Virus record (IMG/VR): IMGVR_UViG_3300045988_183881
Location: 1 to 5,655 of that record
Strand: one strand, 5' to 3'
Length of the DNA: 5,655 nucleotides
From: a virus
Shown: piece by piece, positions 120 through 5,655 of the stretch
Layout: the number at the start of each line of letters is the position of its first letter
Position numbering within the stretch: the first letter of the stretch is position 1
Notes under the pieces: generated by a model
The model's database searches: none
What the model was told of the DNA's origin: nothing
What the model saw: only the letters and a program-made list of their open reading frames with translations
Position numbers and translations under genes: made by a program

Positions 120-320
120 TCACTGGTCAAACCGGAGTAAATCCTCCGCCCGGATGCCTAAACACTTCGAAAGACTAGCCGCATATTCCAAATTTAATTT
201 AGAAAATAAACGCTGGTGCTGTTCAAGTGCCCTAATAGTACGAACTGGAACACCGGACGCATTCGCAAGGCTAACTTGCGTAAATTTTTTACTTTCTCTC
301 AATTCAACAAAATTACACAT
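120..320 (-). CDS. XRE/Cro-C1 family helix-turn-helix transcriptional regulator, 66 aa.
   Basis: Translation contains a classic HTH_XRE signature: KFTQVSLANASGVPVRTIRALEQ. ATG at 320 is preceded by AAGGAGA with 8-nt spacing. TGA stop at 120-122. Confidence 0.8.
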   Translation of the reverse strand: MCNFVELRESKKFTQVSLANASGVPVRTIRALEQHQRLFSKLNLEYAASLSKCLGIRAEDLLRFDQ

Positions 321-338
321 AAAAATATCTCCTTAAAT

Positions 339-368
339 AAAACCGTGGCGCATTTACACCACGGTTTT
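339..368. terminator. Hairpin with a 10-bp stem and 10-nt loop (AAAACCGTGG / CCACGGTTTT), flanked by T-tracts on both strands. It sits between the Zot-like gene and the XRE gene.
   Basis: Reverse complement of 339-348 equals 359-368. Plus strand is followed by ATTTTATTTTTA; minus sense is followed by TTATTT and then the XRE RBS. It is also a dsDNA palindrome carrying AACCGTG / CACGGTT half-sites. Confidence 0.45.
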
Positions 369-396
369 ATTTTATTTTTAATCATTATCACGTCAA
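369..396 (-). promoter_or_regulatory. Sigma70-like promoter for the XRE gene: TTGACG, 16-nt spacer, TAAAAT on the minus strand.
   Basis: Minus-strand reading of 396-369 is TTGACGtgataatgattaaaaaTAAAAT. The predicted start falls inside the hairpin arm at about 360-362. Confidence 0.4.
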
Positions 397-425
397 AAAT
401 GGTTATATGATTTTTTAACATATCG

Positions 426-480
426 CAACGCCTGGCATCATGGCGGGGACCCCGTGCCCCACCCATTCAACCAGGCGTTG
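426..480. other. GC-rich extended hairpin overlapping the last codons of the Zot-like gene. Outer stem is 10 bp (426-435 with 471-480). Inner GC stem is 442-448 with 457-463, with one mismatch.
   Basis: Reverse complement of CAACGCCTGG (426-435) equals CCAGGCGTTG (471-480). Inner GGCGGGG/CCCCACC pairs 6 of 7. Local GC is about 65% in a genome of roughly 37% GC (estimated by eye). Confidence 0.5.
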
Positions 481-1087
481 TAAATATGTTATAAGTATCA
501 TATAAACTATAGTATTTTTTATGAGCCTTAAAGAACTGACTACCTACCTTTTCTTTCATTGGGTACCATATTTTAACCGATACAAATAGATTGCCTATAC
601 TAATCATGGACAATATTTTTCCAATCAATCCATAATTAGATACTTTTCTATGTACAAGTTCATATTCTATTAATGAGCGTATTTGTCTATCAATCATCCG
701 GTCAAACTGACTCACCAGTACAATATCATATCCGTATTTCCTATGCTGCGTAAAAAAGGATAACCACTCATTACGACCAGTACACCCCCAATCCCTCGAG
801 TTAAATAGTATCTGACATTCATCAATCACTAATAATATACTACCCTCTTTTGGTCTTTTATTTTTAAATAACTTTTGTGAGTATTCTATAAGTCTTTGGG
901 GCGTCAATTCCAAGTTATCAATATAGAAAAACGAATCATAGAATCTTTTAGCCTTTATCTTTTTATAGTTCACATGAACATCAAAATTGCAGATTGTTGG
1001 ACGCCCGGAACGGATTCTATAATACAACTTTTCCGCCAGATGTAATGATTTACCGCTACCCGGCGTACCTGAATACAATGTTATCAA
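467..1087 (-). CDS. Zot / inovirus pI-like morphogenesis ATPase (P-loop NTPase), 206 aa, with an apparent TTG start.
   Basis: N-terminal MITLYSGTPGSGKS is the Zot/pI-type Walker A. LLVIDEC is a Walker B. RBS GAGGTGA lies 7 nt upstream of TTG at 1087; the codon at 1085-1087 is TTG, not ATG. The gene is last in the pIII-pVI-pI order. A possible weak TM segment is GLIGKILSMISIGNLFVSV. Confidence 0.85.
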   Translation of the reverse strand: MITLYSGTPGSGKSLHLAEKLYYRIRSGRPTICNFDVHVNYKKIKAKRFYDSFFYIDNLELTPQRLIEYSQKLFKNKRPKEGSILLVIDECQILFNSRDWGCTGRNEWLSFFTQHRKYGYDIVLVSQFDRMIDRQIRSLIEYELVHRKVSNYGLIGKILSMISIGNLFVSVKIWYPMKEKVGSQFFKAHKKYYSLYDTYNIFTTPG

Positions 1088-1100
1088 TATATATTCACCT

Positions 1101-1328
1101 CTATTCTATTGCCCTAATCCATCTTAAAATAATTTGATACACATAAAACAAACCAATTGCCACAAGCCACGCTTCACCAATTGCAATAATCTGACTTATA
1201 GGCAAGAAGTAATTGAGATAGCCTAAGCATGGCAAATCCTGCATTTTATTTATAAATGTTATAAATGGACTTGTAGGCAAGAACTTTAATATTTTATCGA
1301 ATATGCCCGATACTGCTGAAAAATCCAT
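1101..1328 (-). CDS. Small hydrophobic membrane protein, pVI-like minor coat/assembly protein by position, 75 aa.
   Basis: ATG at 1328 with AGGAG 7 nt upstream. At least two hydrophobic segments. Located between the pIII-like and pI-like genes as in inoviruses. Confidence 0.5.
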   Translation of the reverse strand: MDFSAVSGIFDKILKFLPTSPFITFINKMQDLPCLGYLNYFLPISQIIAIGEAWLVAIGLFYVYQIILRWIRAIE

Positions 1329-1338
1329 AAAAATTCTC

Positions 1339-2955
1339 CTATCCTTTTATAATGTTTCGTGTTACCAAAATCAGACCAACAATGAATGTTAGTAATATTC
1401 CAGTTCTAAATATTGTTACCAGTGGTTGCACCTTGTCAAAATTCAGATGGAACGTATATTCAAAATTTAACGAATCAACTTTTAAAGTATATTCCCAATC
1501 CGGAGCAACAGGTTTCGCCTTTAATACCTCGAAGCACCGAACCAAGTCAAACGGTATGCAGAACGGAAAAATAGTTGTCCATCCGTCATATTTTAATTTG
1601 TTATTCTTATCATCCGTTGGCGGGTCTGGATTAGTTGTATCATCAATAACATCATCAATAGGAATATCCGTATCAATTACAACATCCCCAACCTTATCAA
1701 CCGGAGTAACACCCGGTATAGGTAAGTCAATAACTGCGTCACCTTCCGCCACTCCACCAACCGGAATATCTGACACGGGTACATCAATATCACCGGTTAT
1801 AACTTTGTTTCCTGCTTCATCCTCTCCGGCAGTTTGACCCGGTACAACAACATCATATGCATCCGGGTAAGTACCGCTATTTATTAAATCTAATATTGAA
1901 TCCGGCACAGACAGTCCACCTAATATCTTAGGAAATATAACATCCGGCGCAAGGTCACCACGGACACCATCAACCGCTACAGTTGAGTACAAAATACGCC
2001 CCTTACAATTTACGCAATCAATTAATTGCGCTATACCATATTTATTAGTAATTCCACCATTAAATAAATATGTACCTTGCATTGCTTCAATAGCTTTACT
2101 TATACCATAACTAGGCGCATAACGATAGATAGGTTTGTTGTCAGTACCTATAGCAACTTGATAAACCATACCATTCTCCGACATTGCATTAATTGTATTA
2201 TATAGCGTCCCATCCGCATTATATATATCGTAAACCAAGCCACCGGAATAATTATTATAGCCTGCATACCGCCCTTTTACAGTTGCTTTATCCGGCACAT
2301 TATAGGCAGTAATATAATAATAATATACAGTGCATGGAATGTCAGACCCAGCATATGGATATAATTTAGTTTGACTTGATTGGTATTTATAAATAGTCAA
2401 CGCGTTAAAATCCGTATCATCATACTTAGCTTTTATCTGCTCCATCTGTGCAGTGGTTAAATACGGCAATTCAATAGAAAGCGTATCTGCAATTGACCCC
2501 GGCGTTAATGTTGGATAAGCTTCGTGTGGTTTACTTCCGACCTTTGAGCCATCAGTTCCGGTAAACATATCCGCCGCCCATTCTTTCAACTTATGCCACC
2601 CATCCGAGCCGGCATCCATAACAATGCGTCCAGTTTCCTGCGCATCTTGTATTACATTATCTAACCATATATCAAATGTTTCATCTATACCATCCATTTC
2701 AGAATCAACCGCACTTTTCATGGATTCTAATATTGATTTTGCATCTTTTTCTATAACGTCTTTATTTTCATATGCTTCAGCAGCAGTCCAAGTTATTCCC
2801 AGCATACCTAAAAGCGTTCCCATAACTTCACTTAATGACCATAATGTATACGCCCATTCCGCCGCCTGCGCTTGCTGATAGTCACATACAACAGTTGATA
2901 CAGATAAATATAACGCCATAAATATCATGCATATTCTTTTAGCAATTGTTTTCAT
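1339..2955 (-). CDS. pIII-like adsorption / minor coat protein, 538 aa. It has an N-terminal signal peptide, a Tyr/Gly-rich domain, an acidic D/V/P/I-rich linker and a C-terminal membrane anchor.
   Basis: N-terminus MKTIAKRICMIFMALYLSVSTVVCDYQQAQA-AEW has an n-h-c structure with an AQA cleavage motif. The C-terminus GILLTFIVGLILV is a TM helix. AAGGAGA lies 7 nt upstream of ATG at 2955. It is the largest gene and follows the coat genes. Confidence 0.7.
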   Translation of the reverse strand: MKTIAKRICMIFMALYLSVSTVVCDYQQAQAAEWAYTLWSLSEVMGTLLGMLGITWTAAEAYENKDVIEKDAKSILESMKSAVDSEMDGIDETFDIWLDNVIQDAQETGRIVMDAGSDGWHKLKEWAADMFTGTDGSKVGSKPHEAYPTLTPGSIADTLSIELPYLTTAQMEQIKAKYDDTDFNALTIYKYQSSQTKLYPYAGSDIPCTVYYYYITAYNVPDKATVKGRYAGYNNYSGGLVYDIYNADGTLYNTINAMSENGMVYQVAIGTDNKPIYRYAPSYGISKAIEAMQGTYLFNGGITNKYGIAQLIDCVNCKGRILYSTVAVDGVRGDLAPDVIFPKILGGLSVPDSILDLINSGTYPDAYDVVVPGQTAGEDEAGNKVITGDIDVPVSDIPVGGVAEGDAVIDLPIPGVTPVDKVGDVVIDTDIPIDDVIDDTTNPDPPTDDKNNKLKYDGWTTIFPFCIPFDLVRCFEVLKAKPVAPDWEYTLKVDSLNFEYTFHLNFDKVQPLVTIFRTGILLTFIVGLILVTRNIIKG

Positions 2956-2975
2956 TATGTTATCTCCTTTAATTC

Positions 2976-3008
2976 AAAAACTGGCATGGAAAATTCATTC
3001 CATGCCAG
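2976..3008 (-). terminator. Rho-independent terminator in the minus sense, between the major coat gene and the pIII-like gene.
   Basis: CTGGCATGGAA (2981-2991) pairs with TTCCATGCCAG (2998-3008), giving an 11-bp stem and 6-nt loop. It is followed in the minus sense by TTTTTGAATT (the complement of 2971-2980). Confidence 0.6.
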
Positions 3009-3026
3009 TCAGTTGCTAAGCGCACC

Positions 3027-3191
3027 TTACGCTTTACCGGTCAGCTTTTTAAACACTTTGATGCCGAATGTAACAACCATTACAGCACCGACAACGCCTA
3101 ATGCAACAGGTAATACATTAGCAATTGCAGTATTGCAATTGGTAGCAACAGTTGTAAACGCTTCTGTTAATGCAGTCTGAATACCTTCCAT
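3027..3191 (-). CDS. Major coat protein, pVIII-like, 54 aa: MEGIQTALTEAFTTVATNCNTAIANVLPVALGVVGAVMVVTFGIKVFKKLTGKA.
   Basis: Not in the ORF track because it is under 60 aa. Translated by hand from the reverse complement. It has an amphipathic acidic N-terminus, a hydrophobic core and a basic C-terminus. The genome's strongest RBS, GAGGAGGG, lies 7 nt upstream of ATG at 3191. It is followed by the terminator. Confidence 0.75.
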   Translation of the reverse strand: MEGIQTALTEAFTTVATNCNTAIANVLPVALGVVGAVMVVTFGIKVFKKLTGKA

Positions 3192-3206
3192 TGTTATTCC
3201 CTCCTC

Positions 3207-3341
3207 TCATGCTTTTTTAAAAATCTTTATAATTCCACCGATTGCAAATGATATAACTTCACATGAGCAACCGAATAGAAAACCGCCTATAATACCCATT
3301 CCGAAGATTGTAATTGCACCATAAATATCATATGTTTGCAT
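3207..3341 (-). CDS. Second small coat-like protein, 44 aa: MQTYDIYGAITIFGMGIIGGFLFGCSCEVISFAIGGIIKIFKKA.
   Basis: Hand translation. RBS GGTGAGG lies upstream of ATG at 3341. It is hydrophobic with a basic C-terminus IKIFKKA resembling IKVFKKL of the 54-aa coat. The TGA stop at 3207-3209 is embedded in the RBS of the next gene. Confidence 0.55.
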   Translation of the reverse strand: MQTYDIYGAITIFGMGIIGGFLFGCSCEVISFAIGGIIKIFKKA

Positions 3342-3342
3342 C

Positions 3343-3516
3343 TTAATACCTCACCTTATTAAACAATATTCTTGCGATAACCAGTCCACACAATACACCG
3401 ATTCCAAACAATACACATATAAGCAATACTTCCATATTCCCGGCATGAGTAATTAAATCACTAGATGCAACTTCTGCAATTGTATCTGGCACTTCTGTAG
3501 TTATTACGCTCTCCAT
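3343..3516 (-). CDS. Small membrane protein, 57 aa: MESVITTEVPDTIAEVASSDLITHAGNMEVLLICVLFGIGVLCGLVIARILFNKVRY. It is a pVII/pIX-like or coat-like candidate.
   Basis: Hand translation. It has an acidic N-terminus, one TM segment and a basic C-terminus. The start is 7 nt after the upstream gene's stop, so coupling is possible, but the SD is weak. An alternative start is at M28, about 3435. Confidence 0.45.
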   Translation of the reverse strand: MESVITTEVPDTIAEVASSDLITHAGNMEVLLICVLFGIGVLCGLVIARILFNKVRY

Positions 3517-3523
3517 AGCAGAC

Positions 3524-3751
3524 CTACTTTACCACAACATCAGCAACATAAGCCTTGCCATTATAGCCGCAACTATAACTGACAATAACCTCATGTCCAA
3601 CAGAATCCGGCTTTATTTTTTGTGACAAATCATCAAATAAAAAAATCTTATCAGTTGCTTTACCAACGCAACCGGAAACACCATCCTGTTCCACAAAGAG
3701 TATCTTTCCAACTTTCTTTTTCATCTCTACATATCCGACTAATTTAACCAT
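3524..3751 (-). CDS. Hypothetical beta-rich 75-aa protein at the gV position. Possibly an ssDNA-binding protein; this is a positional guess only.
   Basis: ATG at 3751 is preceded by AGGAGAGGAG. It sits between the rep and coat genes, as gV does in Ff phages. I recognise no diagnostic motif. Confidence 0.45.
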   Translation of the reverse strand: MVKLVGYVEMKKKVGKILFVEQDGVSGCVGKATDKIFLFDDLSQKIKPDSVGHEVIVSYSCGYNGKAYVADVVVK

Positions 3752-3755
3752 CCTT

Positions 3756-3920
3756 TTACTGCTCCTCTCCTAATTCAATAATATCTTTTTTGTACTTTTC
3801 CAATACTGCGGCAATCTCCGGTATAACGACCGCCTCAATAAATACCGCCTGCGATTGAGATTTTGAAGTTACAACAACCTCAAATGCCGCCATTTTTTCT
3901 TTTTCTTCACTGTTTGCCAT
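3756..3920 (-). CDS. Hypothetical acidic helical 54-aa protein: MANSEEKEKMAAFEVVVTSKSQSQAVFIEAVVIPEIAAVLEKYKKDIIELGEEQ. The track's longer 77-aa form starts at 3989, inside rep.
   Basis: ATG at 3920 has GGAG 12 nt upstream and overlaps the last four codons of rep in another frame. A third candidate start at 3893 lies just after the rep stop. Confidence 0.35.
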   Translation of the reverse strand: MANSEEKEKMAAFEVVVTSKSQSQAVFIEAVVIPEIAAVLEKYKKDIIELGEEQ

Positions 3921-4851
3921 TCTCTTTCTTTTCTCCTTTTTGACATTTTTTAAAATATTTATAGTTAACATCCAAGTAACCGCTAACATCCTTTTGATAC
4001 TCTAAATCAGCACCGTAAGAATCAGCTACTTCTTGAATAAAACTATCTACTTCATCCGAGTCTATTAATGCAGTAAATGTTTTCGGTTTTGGAATCGACT
4101 TTGATACAAAATACCGTTGTTTTCCCGGAGTAACAGCACACAAATCTTTTGTTATATATTTAGTTATATAATTAGATACTTTATATGTATCAGTAACTTC
4201 TGTAGCAGTTGAAAAGCCTAGTTTCCAATCATTCAAGTTATAGACAATTTTTCCGTTATATCTTTTTCCGGAATCAGTAAACGTTAAGCCAATAGTATTA
4301 CATAACAATCCGTGTATATGCCAAGCACCATCCTCATGCTGTTCAGGAACAAGCAGATATAATAAGTCATTTGCTTTACGCAGTTTACAATGATTAATCC
4401 ATACGCGGACTCTTTTCATACATATTAAAAAATCGTAACGGTTTTCTATCTTATCTGGCGAATAGGTCAACGTAATAAAATATTCCCATTTACATTGTCT
4501 AGCGTACATATATAATGCCGAACGTGTACGATTGAGAGAACTATAGAGAGAATGCTCTTTCTTACGTTCAATAGCTTTTTCATCAATATCCGTATAAACA
4601 CGTTGAATCTTTTCAGTAAACGGATTATAACAATATTCCGCATCATCAATACGAGGAATAAAACGACCTTGTCCGGTCTTTTCATCAATAACATAAGATG
4701 CAAACCGCCACGCTAATGCATCAGCATTTTTATCAATCATATCAGCACGATAAGAACTTTCACCGTCCAACATTGTATAAACACCTTGTTTATACGTTGC
4801 AACCTCTAACTGACCATTAGCATATTCAGTAATTTTCACATTGTAAGCCAT
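3907..4851 (-). CDS. Rolling-circle replication initiator (HUH endonuclease, superfamily I with two catalytic Tyr, phiX174 gpA / inovirus gII-like), 314 aa.
   Basis: Motif I is YFITLTY, motif II is WHIHGLL (HUH) and motif III is YITKYITK (YxxKYxxK). They are spaced about 50 aa apart. ATG at 4851 is preceded by AGGGA. Confidence 0.85.
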   Translation of the reverse strand: MAYNVKITEYANGQLEVATYKQGVYTMLDGESSYRADMIDKNADALAWRFASYVIDEKTGQGRFIPRIDDAEYCYNPFTEKIQRVYTDIDEKAIERKKEHSLYSSLNRTRSALYMYARQCKWEYFITLTYSPDKIENRYDFLICMKRVRVWINHCKLRKANDLLYLLVPEQHEDGAWHIHGLLCNTIGLTFTDSGKRYNGKIVYNLNDWKLGFSTATEVTDTYKVSNYITKYITKDLCAVTPGKQRYFVSKSIPKPKTFTALIDSDEVDSFIQEVADSYGADLEYQKDVSGYLDVNYKYFKKCQKGEKKENGKQ

Positions 4852-4874
4852 ATTTTTTCCCTAATGGTTGAAAT

Positions 4875-4902
4875 GTGTTGCCATAGTCAAGTAGGGCAAC
4901 AC
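4875..4902. other. Hairpin with a perfect 8-bp stem (GTGTTGCC / GGCAACAC) and 12-nt loop, lying 24-51 nt upstream of the rep start codon.
   Basis: Reverse complement of 4875-4882 equals 4895-4902. There is no flanking T-tract. It lies in the rep leader next to the RBS. Confidence 0.5.
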
Positions 4903-4942
4903 CCTATCACCCGGAACTAACTATTAAAATTGGGTATAAAAA

Positions 4943-4988
4943 AAATAGATAGTTCATAACCTTTCTTTTTGTTATAAACTATCTATTT
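4943..4988 (-). terminator. Extended hairpin plus U8 tract in the minus sense. It is a candidate attenuator/terminator in the rep leader.
   Basis: Outer arms AAATAGATAGTT (4943-4954) and AACTATCTATTT (4977-4988) are perfect. In minus-sense RNA the inner TATAAC/GTTATG pairs with one G-U, giving an 18-bp stem and 10-nt loop. It is followed in the minus sense by TTTTTTTTATA, the complement of 4932-4942. Confidence 0.5.
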
Positions 4989-5049
4989 ATTTTTGTATTG
5001 CACATTAATCTATTCAGCAAAACACCCATTTTGCAAATAGTTTGTAACC

Positions 5050-5086
5050 GCCATGCTCAAAGATAGGAATTCAAATATCGCATGGC
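5050..5086. other. Hairpin with a 7-bp stem (GCCATGC / GCATGGC) and 23-nt loop.
   Basis: Reverse complement of 5050-5056 equals 5080-5086. Confidence 0.35.
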
Positions 5087-5118
5087 ACAAACTACCATTC
5101 CGGCGTTGCCTACATTTT

Positions 5119-5143
5119 CGCAAAACTACGAGCGAGTTTTACG
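5119..5143. other. Imperfect hairpin (CGCAAAACT acgagcg AGTTTTACG), 8 of 9 bp paired.
   Basis: One C-A mismatch. It contains CTACGA, which recurs at 5256-5261. Confidence 0.3.
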
Positions 5144-5163
5144 AATAGATAGCCTATACCCTA

Positions 5164-5192
5164 TATATACCATACTAACACACGGAAGTCAA
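5164..5192 (-). promoter_or_regulatory. Strong sigma70-like promoter on the minus strand: TTGACT, 17-nt spacer, TATATA, with a TGn extended -10. It is directed toward rep.
   Basis: The complement of 5187-5192 is TTGACT. The complement of 5164-5169 is TATATA, preceded by TGg. The spacer is exactly 17 nt, and it contains CACACGG (5179-5185), which resembles the 5368-5374 half-site. Confidence 0.45.
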
Positions 5193-5321
5193 CTTTTTTT
5201 TATCTAGCACACATAAAACAGCGTGTAAACTCTTTTATTCGCAGATAAAAACAATCTACGAATAAAACTTTTGTTTCACAAAAGCAAGGAGTTGACGCAC
5301 TTTTTTATATGCGCAAAGGTA

Positions 5322-5343
5322 GGGAAAATCCGGGGATTTTCCC
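5322..5343. promoter_or_regulatory. Perfect palindrome GGGAAAATCC gg GGATTTTCCC: 10-bp arms with a 2-bp centre. It could be an operator-type site or a hairpin with a 9-bp stem and 4-nt loop.
   Basis: The reverse complement of 5322-5331 equals 5334-5343. Confidence 0.5.
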
Positions 5344-5350
5344 ATAATAG

Positions 5351-5374
5351 AACCGTGTGCATCTGCACACGGTT
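5351..5374. promoter_or_regulatory. Perfect palindrome AACCGTGTGCA tc TGCACACGGTT: 11-bp arms with a 2-bp centre. It shares the AACCGTG / CACGGTT half-site with the hairpin at 339-368.
   Basis: The reverse complement of 5351-5361 equals 5364-5374. It lies 8 nt from the previous palindrome, between divergent promoters. Confidence 0.5.
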
Positions 5375-5414
5375 GAAACTCATCATATAATTATTGGTTA
5401 CTCGCTACCAGTAA

Positions 5415-5443
5415 TTGACCACCACAAGAGACAATTGTATTAT
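5415..5443 (+). promoter_or_regulatory. Sigma70-like promoter on the plus strand: TTGACC, 17-nt spacer, TATTAT. It is the only convincing plus-strand transcription signal.
   Basis: TTGACC at 5415-5420, TATTAT at 5438-5443, with an exact 17-nt spacer. Confidence 0.45.
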
Positions 5444-5449
5444 CTTTTT

Positions 5450-5566
5450 TGGATGCAAGCTATCCCACATATCAGAAAAAATTGTTGCTAGCTCCTGATG
5501 GGCGAGCTACTTCTTACATAAAAACCGAATTTAGTAAACGGTCAACCATTCGGTTGATTTTTTTTT
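5450..5566 (+). ncRNA. Candidate noncoding RNA of about 110 nt on the plus strand, running from the 5415-5443 promoter to the 5523-5566 terminator. Alternatively it is the complementary-strand primer-RNA region of the origin.
   Basis: No ORF longer than 12 codons and no SD within it. It is bounded by the promoter and the hairpin plus T9. Confidence 0.3.
5523..5566 (+). terminator. Intrinsic terminator on the plus strand. It is a hairpin followed by T9, using either stem AACCGAAT/ATTCGGTT or the shorter CAACC attc GGTTG. It is weaker in the minus sense (UUUUUAU).
   Basis: Reverse complement of 5523-5530 equals 5548-5555. 5543-5547 pairs with 5552-5556. T9 runs 5558-5566, which equals window positions 2-10. 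Confidence 0.55.
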
Positions 5567-5655
5567 AGATCACAAAACCAGTGTCTAAAAAAAAACGTAG
5601 CCGTTGACAAAATCAGGATTTTATATACACGGGCGAACAAGCACAGCTTAGGCAA
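5557..5655. repeat. Second copy of the 99-bp terminal repeat (duplicate of 1-99).
   Basis: Identical to 1-99. Confidence 0.85.

What the first reader, a model, noticed from the sequence alone, without database searches (positions are those of the whole stretch)
4852..5192. Promoter, then a 220-nt structured leader, then an 18-bp hairpin plus U8, then rep: a possible transcription-attenuation control of the replication initiator
The strong minus-strand promoter at 5164-5192 points at rep. About 220 nt downstream is an extended hairpin whose inner stem pairs only in the minus-sense RNA (G-U instead of C-A). It is followed by 8 U. No good promoter is visible in the 90 bp between this terminator and rep, so rep expression may depend on read-through. 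That would be attenuation, reminiscent of antisense or attenuator control of Rep in RCR plasmids.
Basis: partly seen in the sequence, partly recalled or inferred. Interest (0 to 1): 0.6.

Follow-up and report, generated by a model that had tools for sequence, protein, structure and literature searches.

The report
Inovirus control region: attP, terminator, origin
The stretch upstream of rep in this 5.6-kb gut filamentous phage holds a promoter, a CTXphi-like folded attachment site, a conserved terminator-like hairpin and the replication nick hairpin, so it is not the regulated RNA attenuator that was proposed.

Summary
The window is a circular 5,556-bp inovirus genome. Its relatives are prophages beside dtd in Roseburia. 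The described features are real. TTGACT-17-TATATA (5192-5164) keeps its hexamers and spacing in 16 relatives while the spacer drifts. The A-run/17-bp hairpin/T-run (4993-4938) is present in 25 of 25 relatives, with compensatory changes and 7-11 T. No conserved promoter lies between it and rep.

The interpretation needs revision in three ways.

1. Most of the "220-nt structured leader" (5151-5009) is a forked hairpin of the packaged strand, built from two inverted att-like sites. It rebuilds a duplex copy of a 36-bp host palindrome that lies about 1.3 kb from an XerS-like recombinase gene. Prophage junctions and three compensated base pairs between two phage lineages support this. It is a CTXphi-type attP.

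2. Integration separates the -35 box from rep.

3. The hairpin next to rep (4902-4875; loop CTACTTGACTAT, invariant in close relatives and near-identical down to 38% Rep identity) is the probable Rep nick site.

The hairpin plus T-run is best read as a leaky intrinsic terminator that insulates the origin and rep. I found no conserved antiterminator, no antisense promoter and no conserved Cop-like partner, so regulated attenuation is unsupported.

The parts
5187..5192 (-). -35 box TTGACT of the candidate rep promoter P. It lies just outside the segment shared with the host, so it ends up at the far (attR) end of the prophage.
   Evidence: Sequence. TTGAC(T/A) is present in 16 of 16 phage right ends. 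It is absent from host-side attL and from the empty site.
5164..5172 (-). TGG plus the -10-like hexamer TATATA of P. It lacks the consensus T at position 6 and lies inside the roughly 48-bp segment shared with host DNA downstream of dtd.
5136..5151 (-). att arm A (TATCTATTCGTAAAAC). The strand-exchange boundary is between 5136 and 5135.
   Evidence: attL/attR/attP comparison. In lineage 1 relatives arm A (TATCTATTCGCAAAAC) equals the host left arm 16/16; the window's copy differs at one base (T for C at 5141). It pairs with B' and the pairing covaries.
5114..5126 (-). att segment A' (GTTTTGCGAAAAT). It is separated from A by a 9-11-nt spacer and pairs with B.
5038..5094 (-). Large hairpin (TAGTTTGT GCCATGC ... 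GCATGGC .. ACAAACTA) at the tip of the fork. Its stems are invariant and its loop is variable.
5028..5037 (-). att segment B (TTTGCAAAAT), which pairs with A'.
   Evidence: 10 pairs, 100% paired, with G.T wobbles only in this strand.
5009..5023 (-). att segment B' (GTTTTGC[T]GAATAGA), which pairs with arm A as a 14-bp stem with one bulged base.
   Evidence: compensatory changes at 3 pairs between the two phage lineages.
4938..4993 (-). A-run, 17-bp AU-rich hairpin and T8: an intrinsic-terminator-like element, bidirectional in most relatives.
4915..4924 (-). Third copy of the ATAGWTAGYT repeat, at a fixed 12 nt from the origin stem. It is a candidate Rep-binding element of the origin.
   Evidence: The insertions in L033 and L040 fall upstream of it.
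4875..4902 (-). Probable double-strand origin: an 8-bp stem GTGTTGCC/GGCAACAC with the loop CTACTTGACTAT, which carries a CTTGA nick-like motif.
   Evidence: Compensatory stem variants GTGTCCCC/GGGGACAC and GTGTCCTC/GAGGACAC with an invariant loop. Conserved in the 38%-Rep clade and beyond. CTTGATA is the Rep_1/pC194 dso nick motif (PMC10378824).
4849..4862 (-). Shine-Dalgarno-like AGGGA, an A-rich spacer and the rep start codon.
3907..4851 (-). rep: an HUH rolling-circle initiator with the motifs HIHG and YITKYITK.
   Evidence: PF23343 at 8e-16 and phrog_3419 at 4e-21. Weak match to CRESS Rep endonuclease domains covering HUH and Tyr.

Best explanation
Region 4852-5192 is the cis-acting control region of a temperate, integrase-less filamentous phage of Roseburia. 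Read in the rep sense, it contains five elements.

1. A sigma-A-type promoter P.
2. A forked-hairpin attachment site, attP(+). In the packaged (+) single strand, two inverted att-like sites anneal (A with B', A' with B) around a large hairpin. This rebuilds a duplex copy of a 36-bp host palindrome with a mismatched centre. A host tyrosine recombinase, probably the XerS-like enzyme encoded about 1.3 kb from that palindrome, then exchanges strands at the arm/centre boundary, as XerCD does for CTXphi.
3. An AU-rich hairpin with a U-run that acts as a partly efficient intrinsic terminator.
4. A repeat plus a nick hairpin that together form the rolling-circle origin.
5. rep.

In the circular replicative form, rep is made from the fraction of P transcripts that read through the terminator. 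After integration, P goes to the other prophage end. The same terminator then shields the origin and rep from transcription entering from the host gene dtd.

Shown by sequence comparison: the junctions, the attP pairing and its covariation, conservation of P, of the hairpin plus T-run and of the origin hairpin, and the absence of attenuator accessories.

Inferred only: that P fires, that the hairpin terminates, that Rep nicks in the loop, and that the XerS-like enzyme is the recombinase.
For: Replicon type:
- Circular 5,556-bp genome with Rep, a Gp8-like coat protein, Zot/pI and HTH genes, all on one strand.
- No recombinase domain in any scanned ORF.

Host:
- The flanking dtd protein is identical to a Roseburia protein.

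Attachment site:
- L015 carries the phage between dtd and host DNA, with window 5183..5136 duplicated at both ends.
- 25 relatives lose similarity to the window at this point, in two host contexts that are reverse complements of each other.
- L066 holds the unoccupied palindrome TATCTATTCGCAAAAC-ACAG-CTTTTACGAATAA next to dtd.
- The phage-borne arm A equals the left host arm in lineage 1 and the reverse complement of the right host arm in lineage 2, and B' changes with it.
- Forked structure: 99.6% of cells paired, 3 pairs changed on both sides, 0 of 500 shuffles reach the covariation score. The local hairpins give 94.3% paired and no compensated pair.
- An independent RNAalifold run proposed the same long-range pairing.
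- G.T wobbles occur only in the coding (packaged) strand.
- The geometry matches CTXphi. Central regions are 11 and 6 nt, the sites are about 85 nt apart and the structure spans 141 nt. For CTXphi the figures are 12 and 7 nt, about 90 nt and about 150 nt (PMC3089051).
- The host ORF L066 8702-9784 is a 360-aa tyrosine recombinase whose best match is XerS (2e-59). Gene orientation and GC skew both switch near the site.

Promoter:
- Hexamers and spacing are conserved while the spacer varies.

Terminator:
- z = -7.6.
- Present in 25 of 25 relatives with a T-run of 7-11 nt. L046 keeps the T-run but lacks the A-run.
- Compensatory pairs.
- It forms in every full-length fold.
- Natural insertions in L033 and L040 separate it from the repeat-plus-origin unit, so it does not depend on spacing.
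- The tRNA-Ser behind it in L040 has no promoter of its own.

Origin:
-.
Against: - No transcript data exist. The -10 of P (TATATA) lacks the nearly invariant T at its last position, and it lies in DNA shared with the host, so its conservation could reflect att function.
- The hairpin stem has only 3-4 G-C pairs and a 10-nt loop, and the terminator scan did not call it.
- Its arms are two of four copies of a repeat confined to this region. It could therefore be a protein-binding inverted repeat or a signal in the single-stranded DNA.
- The attP covariation rests on only two lineages, which is essentially one evolutionary split.
- Thermodynamic folding of the window's single strand prefers the local hairpins.
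- The host palindrome has not been shown to be a dimer-resolution site. The XerS-like gene is 1.3 kb away rather than adjacent, and it scores below the XerS equivalog cutoff (201 bits against 267).
- Only 14 kb of host context was available for the skew analysis.
Confidence: 0.55

Rival explanations
1. Regulated transcription attenuation of rep. The hairpin plus U-run is switched on or off by an antisense RNA, a protein or an alternative leader fold, and this sets Rep level and copy number as in pT181 or pIP501.
For: - The layout resembles pIP501-type replicons: a long leader, an inverted repeat plus poly(T) just 5' of rep, and a small XRE-HTH gene in the window (PMC5703833).
- No conserved promoter lies downstream of the hairpin.
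- In the window and 5 relatives, the 5' arm can also pair with upstream ACAAACTAT or with CTATCTAT.
Against: - No conserved counter-transcript promoter in the leader.
- The best antisense promoter-like site, inside rep, drifts at synonymous positions.
- The upstream partner of the 5' arm differs between sequences, and the terminator forms in the minimum-energy fold of all 25 full-length leaders.
- The alternative pairing seen in the window has 4 mismatches in the 19 sequences that carry the other arm type (alignment).
- The HTH gene is intact only in the window and L038.
- The leader's structure is accounted for by attP.
Confidence: 0.12
2. The hairpin is a DNA-level signal and not a terminator. 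It could be the packaging signal or the minus-strand origin in the single-stranded genome, or an inverted pair of binding sites for Rep or the recombinase. The flanking A and T runs would then merely extend the stem.
For: - The whole 705-nt intergenic region is strongly structured as a single strand (z = -13), as expected for inovirus origins and packaging signals.
- The arms are copies of ATAGWTAGYT. A third copy sits 12 nt from the origin stem, and a fourth overlaps att arm A.
- Part of the loop (GAAAGG) is conserved.
- Both strands fold equally well.
Against: - The T-run immediately 3' of the stem is kept at 7-11 nt in 25 of 25 relatives, even where the complementary A-run is lost (L046).
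- Insertions of 90-120 nt between the hairpin and the origin unit are tolerated.
- The 38%-Rep clade keeps the origin hairpin but has no such element near it.
Confidence: 0.22
3. The hairpin is only the end-of-circle or boundary terminator, and rep has its own promoter that bypasses it. One candidate has its -10 in the hairpin's 5' arm (CATAAT in 18 relatives, TATAAC in the window) and would start in the loop. The other is TTGCAA-18-TAGATT, about 30 nt upstream.
For: - Relaxed scan: GwGAGA-18-CATAAT in 18 of 25 sequences and TTGCAA-18-TAnATT in 21 of 25 sequences.
- The HTH gene shows a comparable design, with TTGACG-16-TAAAAT ending 4 nt before a terminator-like hairpin.
Against: - Scores are only 8-9 of 12.
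- The -35 of the first candidate is not in register, because the A-run length varies.
- In the window itself its -10 lacks the final T.
- The -35 of the second candidate mutates to TCGCAA in L015, L040 and L047.
- Such matches occur at chance frequency in this AT-rich DNA.
Confidence: 0.11

Closest known systems
CTXphi attP(+) and other Xer-exploiting integrative elements (IMEX) of Vibrio
   Same: - A filamentous phage with no recombinase gene.
- Two inverted att-like sites about 90 nt apart, with unequal central regions, that anneal in the (+) single strand into a forked hairpin mimicking the host site.
- Strand exchange at one arm/centre boundary.
- Integration regenerates a host-type site on one side, which allows arrays (PMC3089051).
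   Different: - The host is a Gram-positive gut anaerobe.
- The target is a 36-bp near-perfect palindrome with A/T-rich inner arms, unlike the 28-bp XerCD dif. It resembles single-recombinase sites and lies near an XerS-like gene.
- Because the target is palindromic, two phage lineages use opposite arms and insert in opposite orientations.
- The sites are themselves palindromic, so local hairpins compete with the fork.
- attP lies between the rep promoter and rep.
pT181 / pIP501 antisense-RNA-driven attenuation of rep
   Same: A long untranslated rep leader that ends in an inverted repeat plus poly(U) shortly before the rep start. pIP501 also has a small XRE-HTH protein (PMC5703833).
   Different: - No conserved counter-transcript promoter and no pre-emptor pairing.
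- The HTH gene is not conserved.
- The hairpin lies about 85 nt before the start codon, with the origin in between, and it does not include the ribosome-binding site.
Ff (M13/f1/fd) intergenic region
   Same: - A non-coding region before the replication gene that holds the hairpins of the (+) origin, other single-strand signals and a terminator.
- The nick lies in a short loop closed by an 8-bp stem (my own knowledge of f1 hairpin D).
- Nick position and gIIp footprint are taken from PMC5405960.
- An intrinsic terminator after the coat gene is also present here (3010-2979).
   Different: - In Ff the gene II promoter lies downstream of the origin, and gene II is controlled at translation through its 5' UTR (PMC5405960).
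- Here only 23 nt separate the origin hairpin from the rep start codon, so the origin is part of the rep 5' UTR.
- Ff does not integrate.
pC194 / phiX174-type double-strand origin
   Same: A CTTGA(T/C)A-type motif in a hairpin loop next to rep. Distant relatives carry the exact CTTGATA. Rep has HUH and two tyrosines spaced Y-x3-Y (PMC10378824).
   Different: The Rep belongs to Pfam REP_ORF2-G2P, not Rep_1. The window has CTTGACT. Nicking has not been tested.
XerS/difSL single-recombinase module of streptococci and lactococci
   Same: A tyrosine recombinase of about 356-360 aa encoded near a dif-like palindrome with inner arms of the type ...CGAAAA / TTTTC... (PMC5357621 and PMC1914069).
   Different: - The site is not immediately upstream of the gene, since dtd and a ttcA-like gene intervene.
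- The protein scores below the XerS equivalog cutoff.
- Its function in dimer resolution is unknown.

Membership tests
pT181/pIP501-type antisense-RNA transcription attenuation of rep | Terminator-like inverted repeat plus poly(U) in the rep leader, shortly 5' of rep | tested here: met
   Hairpin 4944-4987 plus T8, present in 25 of 25 relatives.
pT181/pIP501-type antisense-RNA transcription attenuation of rep | Counter-transcribed small RNA from a promoter inside the leader or the 5' end of rep | tested here: not met
   No antisense promoter-like site of at least 9/12 is conserved in the leader. The TTTACA-16-TATAAT site inside rep is not conserved. This is prediction only, since no RNA data exist.
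pT181/pIP501-type antisense-RNA transcription attenuation of rep | Pre-emptor (antiterminator) pairing that competes with the terminator's 5' arm | tested here: not met
   Partners of the 5' arm before the 3' arm is made differ among the 25 sequences. The terminator is in the minimum-energy fold of all of them.
pT181/pIP501-type antisense-RNA transcription attenuation of rep | Small XRE-HTH Cop repressor (pIP501 branch) | tested here: inconclusive
   A 66-aa HTH_3 protein is encoded in the window, but it is intact in only one of about 30 close relatives.
Intrinsic (Rho-independent) terminator | Stable stem-loop immediately followed by a U-tract on the transcribed strand | tested here: met
   dG -16 to -20 kcal/mol (L046 -12.4 kcal/mol). 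U-tract of 7-11 nt directly after the stem in 25 of 25 relatives.
Intrinsic (Rho-independent) terminator | G+C-rich stem and a short loop | tested here: not met
   3-4 G-C pairs out of 17 and a 10-nt loop. The terminator scan did not call it.
Intrinsic (Rho-independent) terminator | Transcripts end in the U-tract | not testable with these tools
   This needs Term-seq, 3'-RACE or in vitro transcription.
CTXphi-type IMEX with a folded single-strand attP | No phage-encoded recombinase | tested here: met
   Eight ORFs were scanned against Pfam and PHROGs, and none has an integrase, resolvase or transposase domain.
CTXphi-type IMEX with a folded single-strand attP | Two inverted att-like sites that anneal in the (+) strand to form a duplex mimic of the host site with a mismatched centre | tested here: met
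   A:B' and A':B pairing gives 99.6% of cells paired and 3 compensated pairs. Wobble pairs occur only in the (+) strand. Central regions are 11 and 6 nt. Caveat: only two lineages.
CTXphi-type IMEX with a folded single-strand attP | Prophage junctions at the arm/centre boundary, with a host-type site regenerated on one side | tested here: met
   attL, attR and the empty site were compared. Head-to-head double insertions occur in L029, L041 and L040/L064.
CTXphi-type IMEX with a folded single-strand attP | The target is the chromosome dimer-resolution site and catalysis is by the host Xer recombinase | tested here: inconclusive
   An XerS-like gene lies 1.3 kb away. GC skew and gene orientation switch near the site within the 14 kb available. 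Neither dif function nor catalysis has been shown.
Rolling-circle double-strand origin (pC194/phiX174-like nick site) | Conserved nick motif in a hairpin loop next to rep, co-conserved with the Rep family | tested here: met
   The loop CTACTTGACTAT is invariant and the stem shows compensatory changes. It is retained at 38% Rep identity and in more distant loci, some with CTTGATA.
Rolling-circle double-strand origin (pC194/phiX174-like nick site) | Rep cleaves at the motif | not testable with these tools
   This needs a nicking assay.

The most novel reading that the evidence does not exclude
These gut inoviruses may run a repressor-free lysogeny switch built into the geometry of integration. 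The rep promoter and rep lie on opposite sides of a CTXphi-like folded attP. A host XerS-like recombinase inserts the single-stranded genome into a palindromic dif-like site, in either orientation depending on which arm the phage lineage copies. Integration then cuts rep off from its promoter, and the leader terminator blocks host read-through. The whole phage operon would be transcribed only from the circular form. This would be the first single-recombinase, Gram-positive counterpart of CTXphi integration, and it would also identify the unknown dimer-resolution site of a major butyrate-producing gut genus.
Probability: 0.25. Interest if true: 0.7.

Novelty: new variant of a known kind. Interest (0 to 1): 0.55.

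Why it matters
- Filamentous phages of Gram-positive gut commensals are almost uncharacterised, yet this Rep's 90% cluster alone has more than 1,000 members in public data.
- The analysis gives testable coordinates for four elements: promoter, attachment site, terminator and origin.
- It suggests that the CTXphi trick of integrating a folded single strand through a host dimer-resolution recombinase also operates in Lachnospiraceae, with an XerS-like enzyme and a palindromic target.
- It points to a candidate dif-like site and recombinase for Roseburia.
- It offers a simple structural reason why such prophages can be silent without a conserved repressor.
- For the original claim, it shows that a structured leader in a single-stranded DNA phage should first be tested as a DNA signal.

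Tried and rejected
- **Rfam.** Nothing reached gathering scores in the window or in the L033 insertion.
- **Exact-pattern search** for the hairpin in viral contigs: no hits.
- **Annotated phage records.** Only distant Zot-gene similarity to Dulem and bajarodino viruses.
- **Species-representative genomes.** No close relative of the Rep, only relatives of 43% identity or less in Bacillota. The host was identified through the flanking dtd protein instead.
- **Antisense promoter inside rep** (the best consensus match in the window). Rejected because both hexamers drift.
- **Classical 1-2-3-4 attenuator.** The window's 5' arm can pair with ACAAACTAT of the large hairpin. Rejected because 19 of 25 sequences carry 4 mismatches there and no common partner exists.
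- **Local att hairpin A:A'** as the relevant structure. Rejected in favour of the fork, because the lineage-2 changes break it but are compensated in B'.
- **Promoter with TTGACT of the origin loop as -35.** The partner at 18 nt is CATTAG, CATTAA or CATCTA, and the start would fall after the Shine-Dalgarno sequence, so it was rejected.
- **Rep-mediated integration at the nick hairpin.** Rejected for the intact prophages, because their junctions are at att arm A and not in the origin loop.
- **XerCD-type 28-bp dif.** I saw no resemblance to my recalled B. subtilis and E. coli dif sequences (my own inspection).
- **Small ORFs in the leader.** They are not conserved, because T-run length changes shift the frame.
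Full report
**What the window is**

Bases 1-99 repeat at 5557-5655, so the window is a circular 5,556-bp genome. All long ORFs lie on the minus strand:
- an HUH rolling-circle Rep (4851..3907; PF23343, phrog_3419; motifs HIHG and YITKYITK);
- several small membrane proteins, including a Gp8-like major coat protein;
- a 538-aa protein;
- a Zot/pI ATPase;
- a 66-aa XRE-type HTH protein.

This is a small inovirus. Only distant DNA similarity exists to annotated phage records. No ORF has a recombinase domain. In inoviruses the packaged strand is the coding strand, which here is the window's minus strand. A hairpin that pairs in the minus sense can therefore be a DNA signal as easily as an RNA one.

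**The observation**

- TTGACT (5192-5187), a 17-nt spacer ending in TGG, and TATATA (5169-5164);
- about 220 nt further on, an A-run, a 17-bp AU-rich stem (4944-4960 / 4971-4987) with a 10-nt loop, and T8 (4945-4938);
- the rep ATG at 4851.

The hairpin folds far better than shuffles (z = -7.6).

The consensus scanner did not call the promoter, because its -10 lacks the terminal T. Promoter-like sites in the window are no more frequent than in shuffles (26 against 24.4). Only conservation can therefore decide.

The claim that the stem pairs only in the minus sense does not hold. Both strands fold equally well (-20.7 and -20.8 kcal/mol). In addition, 17 of 25 relatives have an A.C mismatch in the minus sense that would be G.U in the plus sense.

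**Relatives**

Rep searches gave 14 viral, 79 metagenomic and 49 genomic loci. About 25 human-gut loci have Rep at 77-93% identity. One clade sits at about 38%, and more distant relatives are prophages almost entirely in Bacillota.

Alignment of the 300-450 nt upstream of rep shows that similarity to the window runs from rep through the hairpin and the leader. In most loci it then stops inside the claimed promoter.

**The leader contains the attachment site**

- In L015, a host dtd gene is followed by phage DNA equal to window 5183..394. The phage's other end (window 5462..5136) follows, and then host DNA, so window 5183..5136 is present at both ends.
- The dtd protein is identical to a Roseburia protein.
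- Left junctions fall into two classes that are reverse complements of the two flanks of one host site.
- L066, from a 1.07-Mb contig, shows that site unoccupied next to dtd: TATCTATTCGCAAAAC-ACAG-CTTTTACGAATAA. No phage genes lie nearby except a decayed origin-plus-rep fragment.
- The exchange point is at the boundary between the 16-nt arm (window 5151-5136) and what follows it.
- The -35 box lies just outside the shared segment. It therefore ends up at the opposite prophage end, pointing into host DNA, and all 16 phage right ends that I recovered carry it.

**The leader's structure is a forked attP**

A consensus fold that was not derived from the window paired the att arm with a segment about 120 nt downstream, on the far side of the large hairpin. 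At attL the arm is host-derived, so I rebuilt each phage's own attP from its attR arm and its attL remainder.

Two lineages emerge:
- Lineage 1: arm A = TATCTATTCGCAAAAC, identical to the left host arm, and B' = GTTTTGC[T]GAATAGA.
- Lineage 2: arm A = TATTTATTCGTAAAAG, the reverse complement of the right host arm, and B' = CTTTTACGA[T]ATAAA.

Both form a 14-bp stem with one bulged base. Segments A' and B are invariant and pair with each other.

| Structure | Cells paired | Pairs changed on both sides | Other |
|---|---|---|---|
| Forked (A:B' + A':B) | 99.6% | 3 | 0 of 500 shuffles reach the covariation score |
| Local hairpins (A:A' + B:B') | 94.3% | 0 | two positions broken in lineage 2 |

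The geometry is that described for CTXphi attP(+) (PMC3089051):
- two palindromic sites, with central regions of 11 and 6 nt (CTXphi: 12 and 7 nt);
- about 85 nt apart (CTXphi: about 90 nt);
- 141 nt in all (CTXphi: about 150 nt).

A 360-aa tyrosine recombinase gene lies 1.3 kb from the host site. Its best match is XerS (2e-59, full-length alignment, below the equivalog cutoff). Gene orientation and GC skew change sign near the site within the 14 kb available. Single-recombinase Xer systems characteristically have the site near the gene, and their sites have ...GAAAA/TTTTC... inner arms (PMC5357621 and PMC1914069).

Caveats:
- There are only two lineages.
- The window's own minimum-energy fold prefers the local hairpins.
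- No functional evidence shows that the palindrome is a dif site.

**The 90 bp before rep hold the probable origin**

- Hairpin 4902-4875 has an invariant loop, CTACTTGACTAT. Its stem varies by compensatory changes, from GTGTTGCC/GGCAACAC to GTGTCCCC/GGGGACAC or GTGTCCTC/GAGGACAC.
- It persists in the 38%-Rep clade (loop TACTTGACAAT) and in still more distant loci, some with the exact CTTGATA. CTTGATA is the conserved nick motif of Rep_1/pC194-type origins (PMC10378824).
- A repeat, ATAGWTAGYT, sits a fixed 12 nt upstream of the stem in 24 of 25 sequences.
- Only 23 nt separate this hairpin from the rep start codon, so the origin is part of the rep 5' UTR. This differs from M13, where the gene II promoter lies downstream of the origin (PMC5405960).

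**The hairpin plus T-run**

It is present in all 25 close relatives:
- the T-run is 7-11 nt and always abuts the stem;
- L046 has lost the A-run but keeps T8;
- pairs 190-216 and 189-217 change on both sides;
- hairpin dG is -16 to -20 kcal/mol (L046 -12.4).

Two natural insertions fall between the T-run and the repeat-plus-origin unit: about 85 nt in L033, and a tRNA-Ser(GCU) gene in L040. The hairpin's role is therefore not spacing-dependent, which argues against it being an integral origin component. The tRNA has no promoter of its own within the 25 nt behind the T-run, which suggests that transcription does pass the hairpin.

The features that would make it a regulated attenuator were sought and not found:
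- No conserved antisense promoter.
- No conserved antiterminator, and the terminator forms in every full-length fold.
- The HTH gene is intact only in the window and L038.
- No promoter-like site is shared between the hairpin and rep.
- Two weak sense-strand candidates, upstream of or inside the hairpin, are not consistently placed.
- The 38% clade lacks the element. It has instead a 24-codon ORF with a strong ribosome-binding site that spans the origin hairpin and stops 7 nt before rep.

**Most likely mechanism**

In the circular replicative form, P starts transcription at about 5157. RNA polymerase crosses attP and meets an AU-rich terminator with a good U-tract that stops a large fraction of transcripts. 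The remainder continue through the origin hairpin into rep and the downstream genes.

After integration of the folded single strand, P is moved about 5.4 kb away to attR. In lineage 1 the host gene dtd then reads towards rep, and the hairpin is the first terminator-like structure in its path.

The junctions, the pairing and the conservation are shown. Promoter activity, termination, nicking and the identity of the recombinase are inferred.

**Verdict**

The attenuation reading is only partly supported. The region is better described as promoter, folded attP, terminator/insulator, origin and rep. This is a new variant of known kinds (CTXphi-type IMEX, inovirus intergenic region, leader terminator) in an unstudied group of gut phages.

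Noticed in passing
L040:6814-6899: A tRNA-Ser(GCU) gene, in the rep orientation, is inserted between the T-run and the origin repeat of a 5.5-kb inovirus prophage. No promoter-like sequence lies in the 25 nt upstream of it.
   Followed up: partly
L033:2606-2695: An insertion of about 85 nt at the same spot as the L040 tRNA. It is strongly structured (-33 kcal/mol), has no Rfam match and does not occur in any other fetched locus.
   Followed up: partly
L066:6947-7330; L015:6082-6148; L039:700-764: Next to the host palindrome there is a decayed phage left end: the origin hairpin, the ribosome-binding site and 16 to 330 nt of rep. The remnants in L015 and L066 end at the same right-hand breakpoint (CTATAAAAAGCTC). 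In L039 a full prophage starts directly at this hairpin, without leader or terminator, probably through recombination with such a remnant.
   Followed up: partly
L029, L041, L040/L064: Two prophages of different lineages sit head-to-head, sharing the host palindrome. This is as expected if each integration regenerates a usable site.
   Followed up: partly
window 336-396 (minus strand): The HTH gene has the same design as rep. TTGACG-16-TAAAAT ends 4 nt before a terminator-like hairpin (AAAACCGTGG...CCACGGTTTT plus TTTTATTT), which precedes the ribosome-binding site. This hairpin may also terminate the Zot operon.
   Followed up: no
window 120-320 compared with relatives: The XRE-HTH gene is accessory. 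It is intact only in the window and L038, other relatives keep only its last 20-25 codons, and L015 has unrelated DNA in its place.
   Followed up: partly
L017-L019, L052-L062 (about 90 nt before rep): In the 38%-Rep clade a 24-codon ORF with a strong ribosome-binding site (AAGGAGGTCTTAAATG) runs through the origin hairpin and stops 7 nt before a rep start that has no Shine-Dalgarno sequence. This suggests translational coupling.
   Followed up: no
window 5322-5343 and 5351-5374: Two perfect palindromes with 2-nt centres (GGGAAAATCC CC GGATTTTCCC and AACCGTGTGCA GA TGCACACGGTT) lie upstream of P. They look like operators or cruciform sites, and their function is unknown.
   Followed up: no
window 4915-4924, 4945-4954, 4977-4986, 5145-5154: The 10-mer ATAGWTAGYT occurs exactly only in this control region (8 matches with up to 1 mismatch against 2.3 expected). 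It forms both arms of the terminator hairpin and overlaps the outer part of att arm A (TATCTATT). Whether the recombinase or Rep binds it is unexplained.
   Followed up: partly
window 2979-3010 (minus strand): A canonical G+C-rich intrinsic terminator lies directly after the major coat gene. This is the same position as the central terminator of Ff phages.
   Followed up: no
window 5415-5568 (plus strand): On the non-coding strand, TTGACC-17-TATTAT is followed about 100 nt later by a hairpin plus T9. This could give a small plus-strand transcript, but the region is not conserved in L015.
   Followed up: no
L066:8702-9784: The host has a 360-aa XerS-like tyrosine recombinase gene 1.3 kb from the palindrome, with dtd and a ttcA-like gene in between. 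GC skew and gene orientation flip nearby, which makes this a candidate dimer-resolution module of Roseburia.
   Followed up: partly
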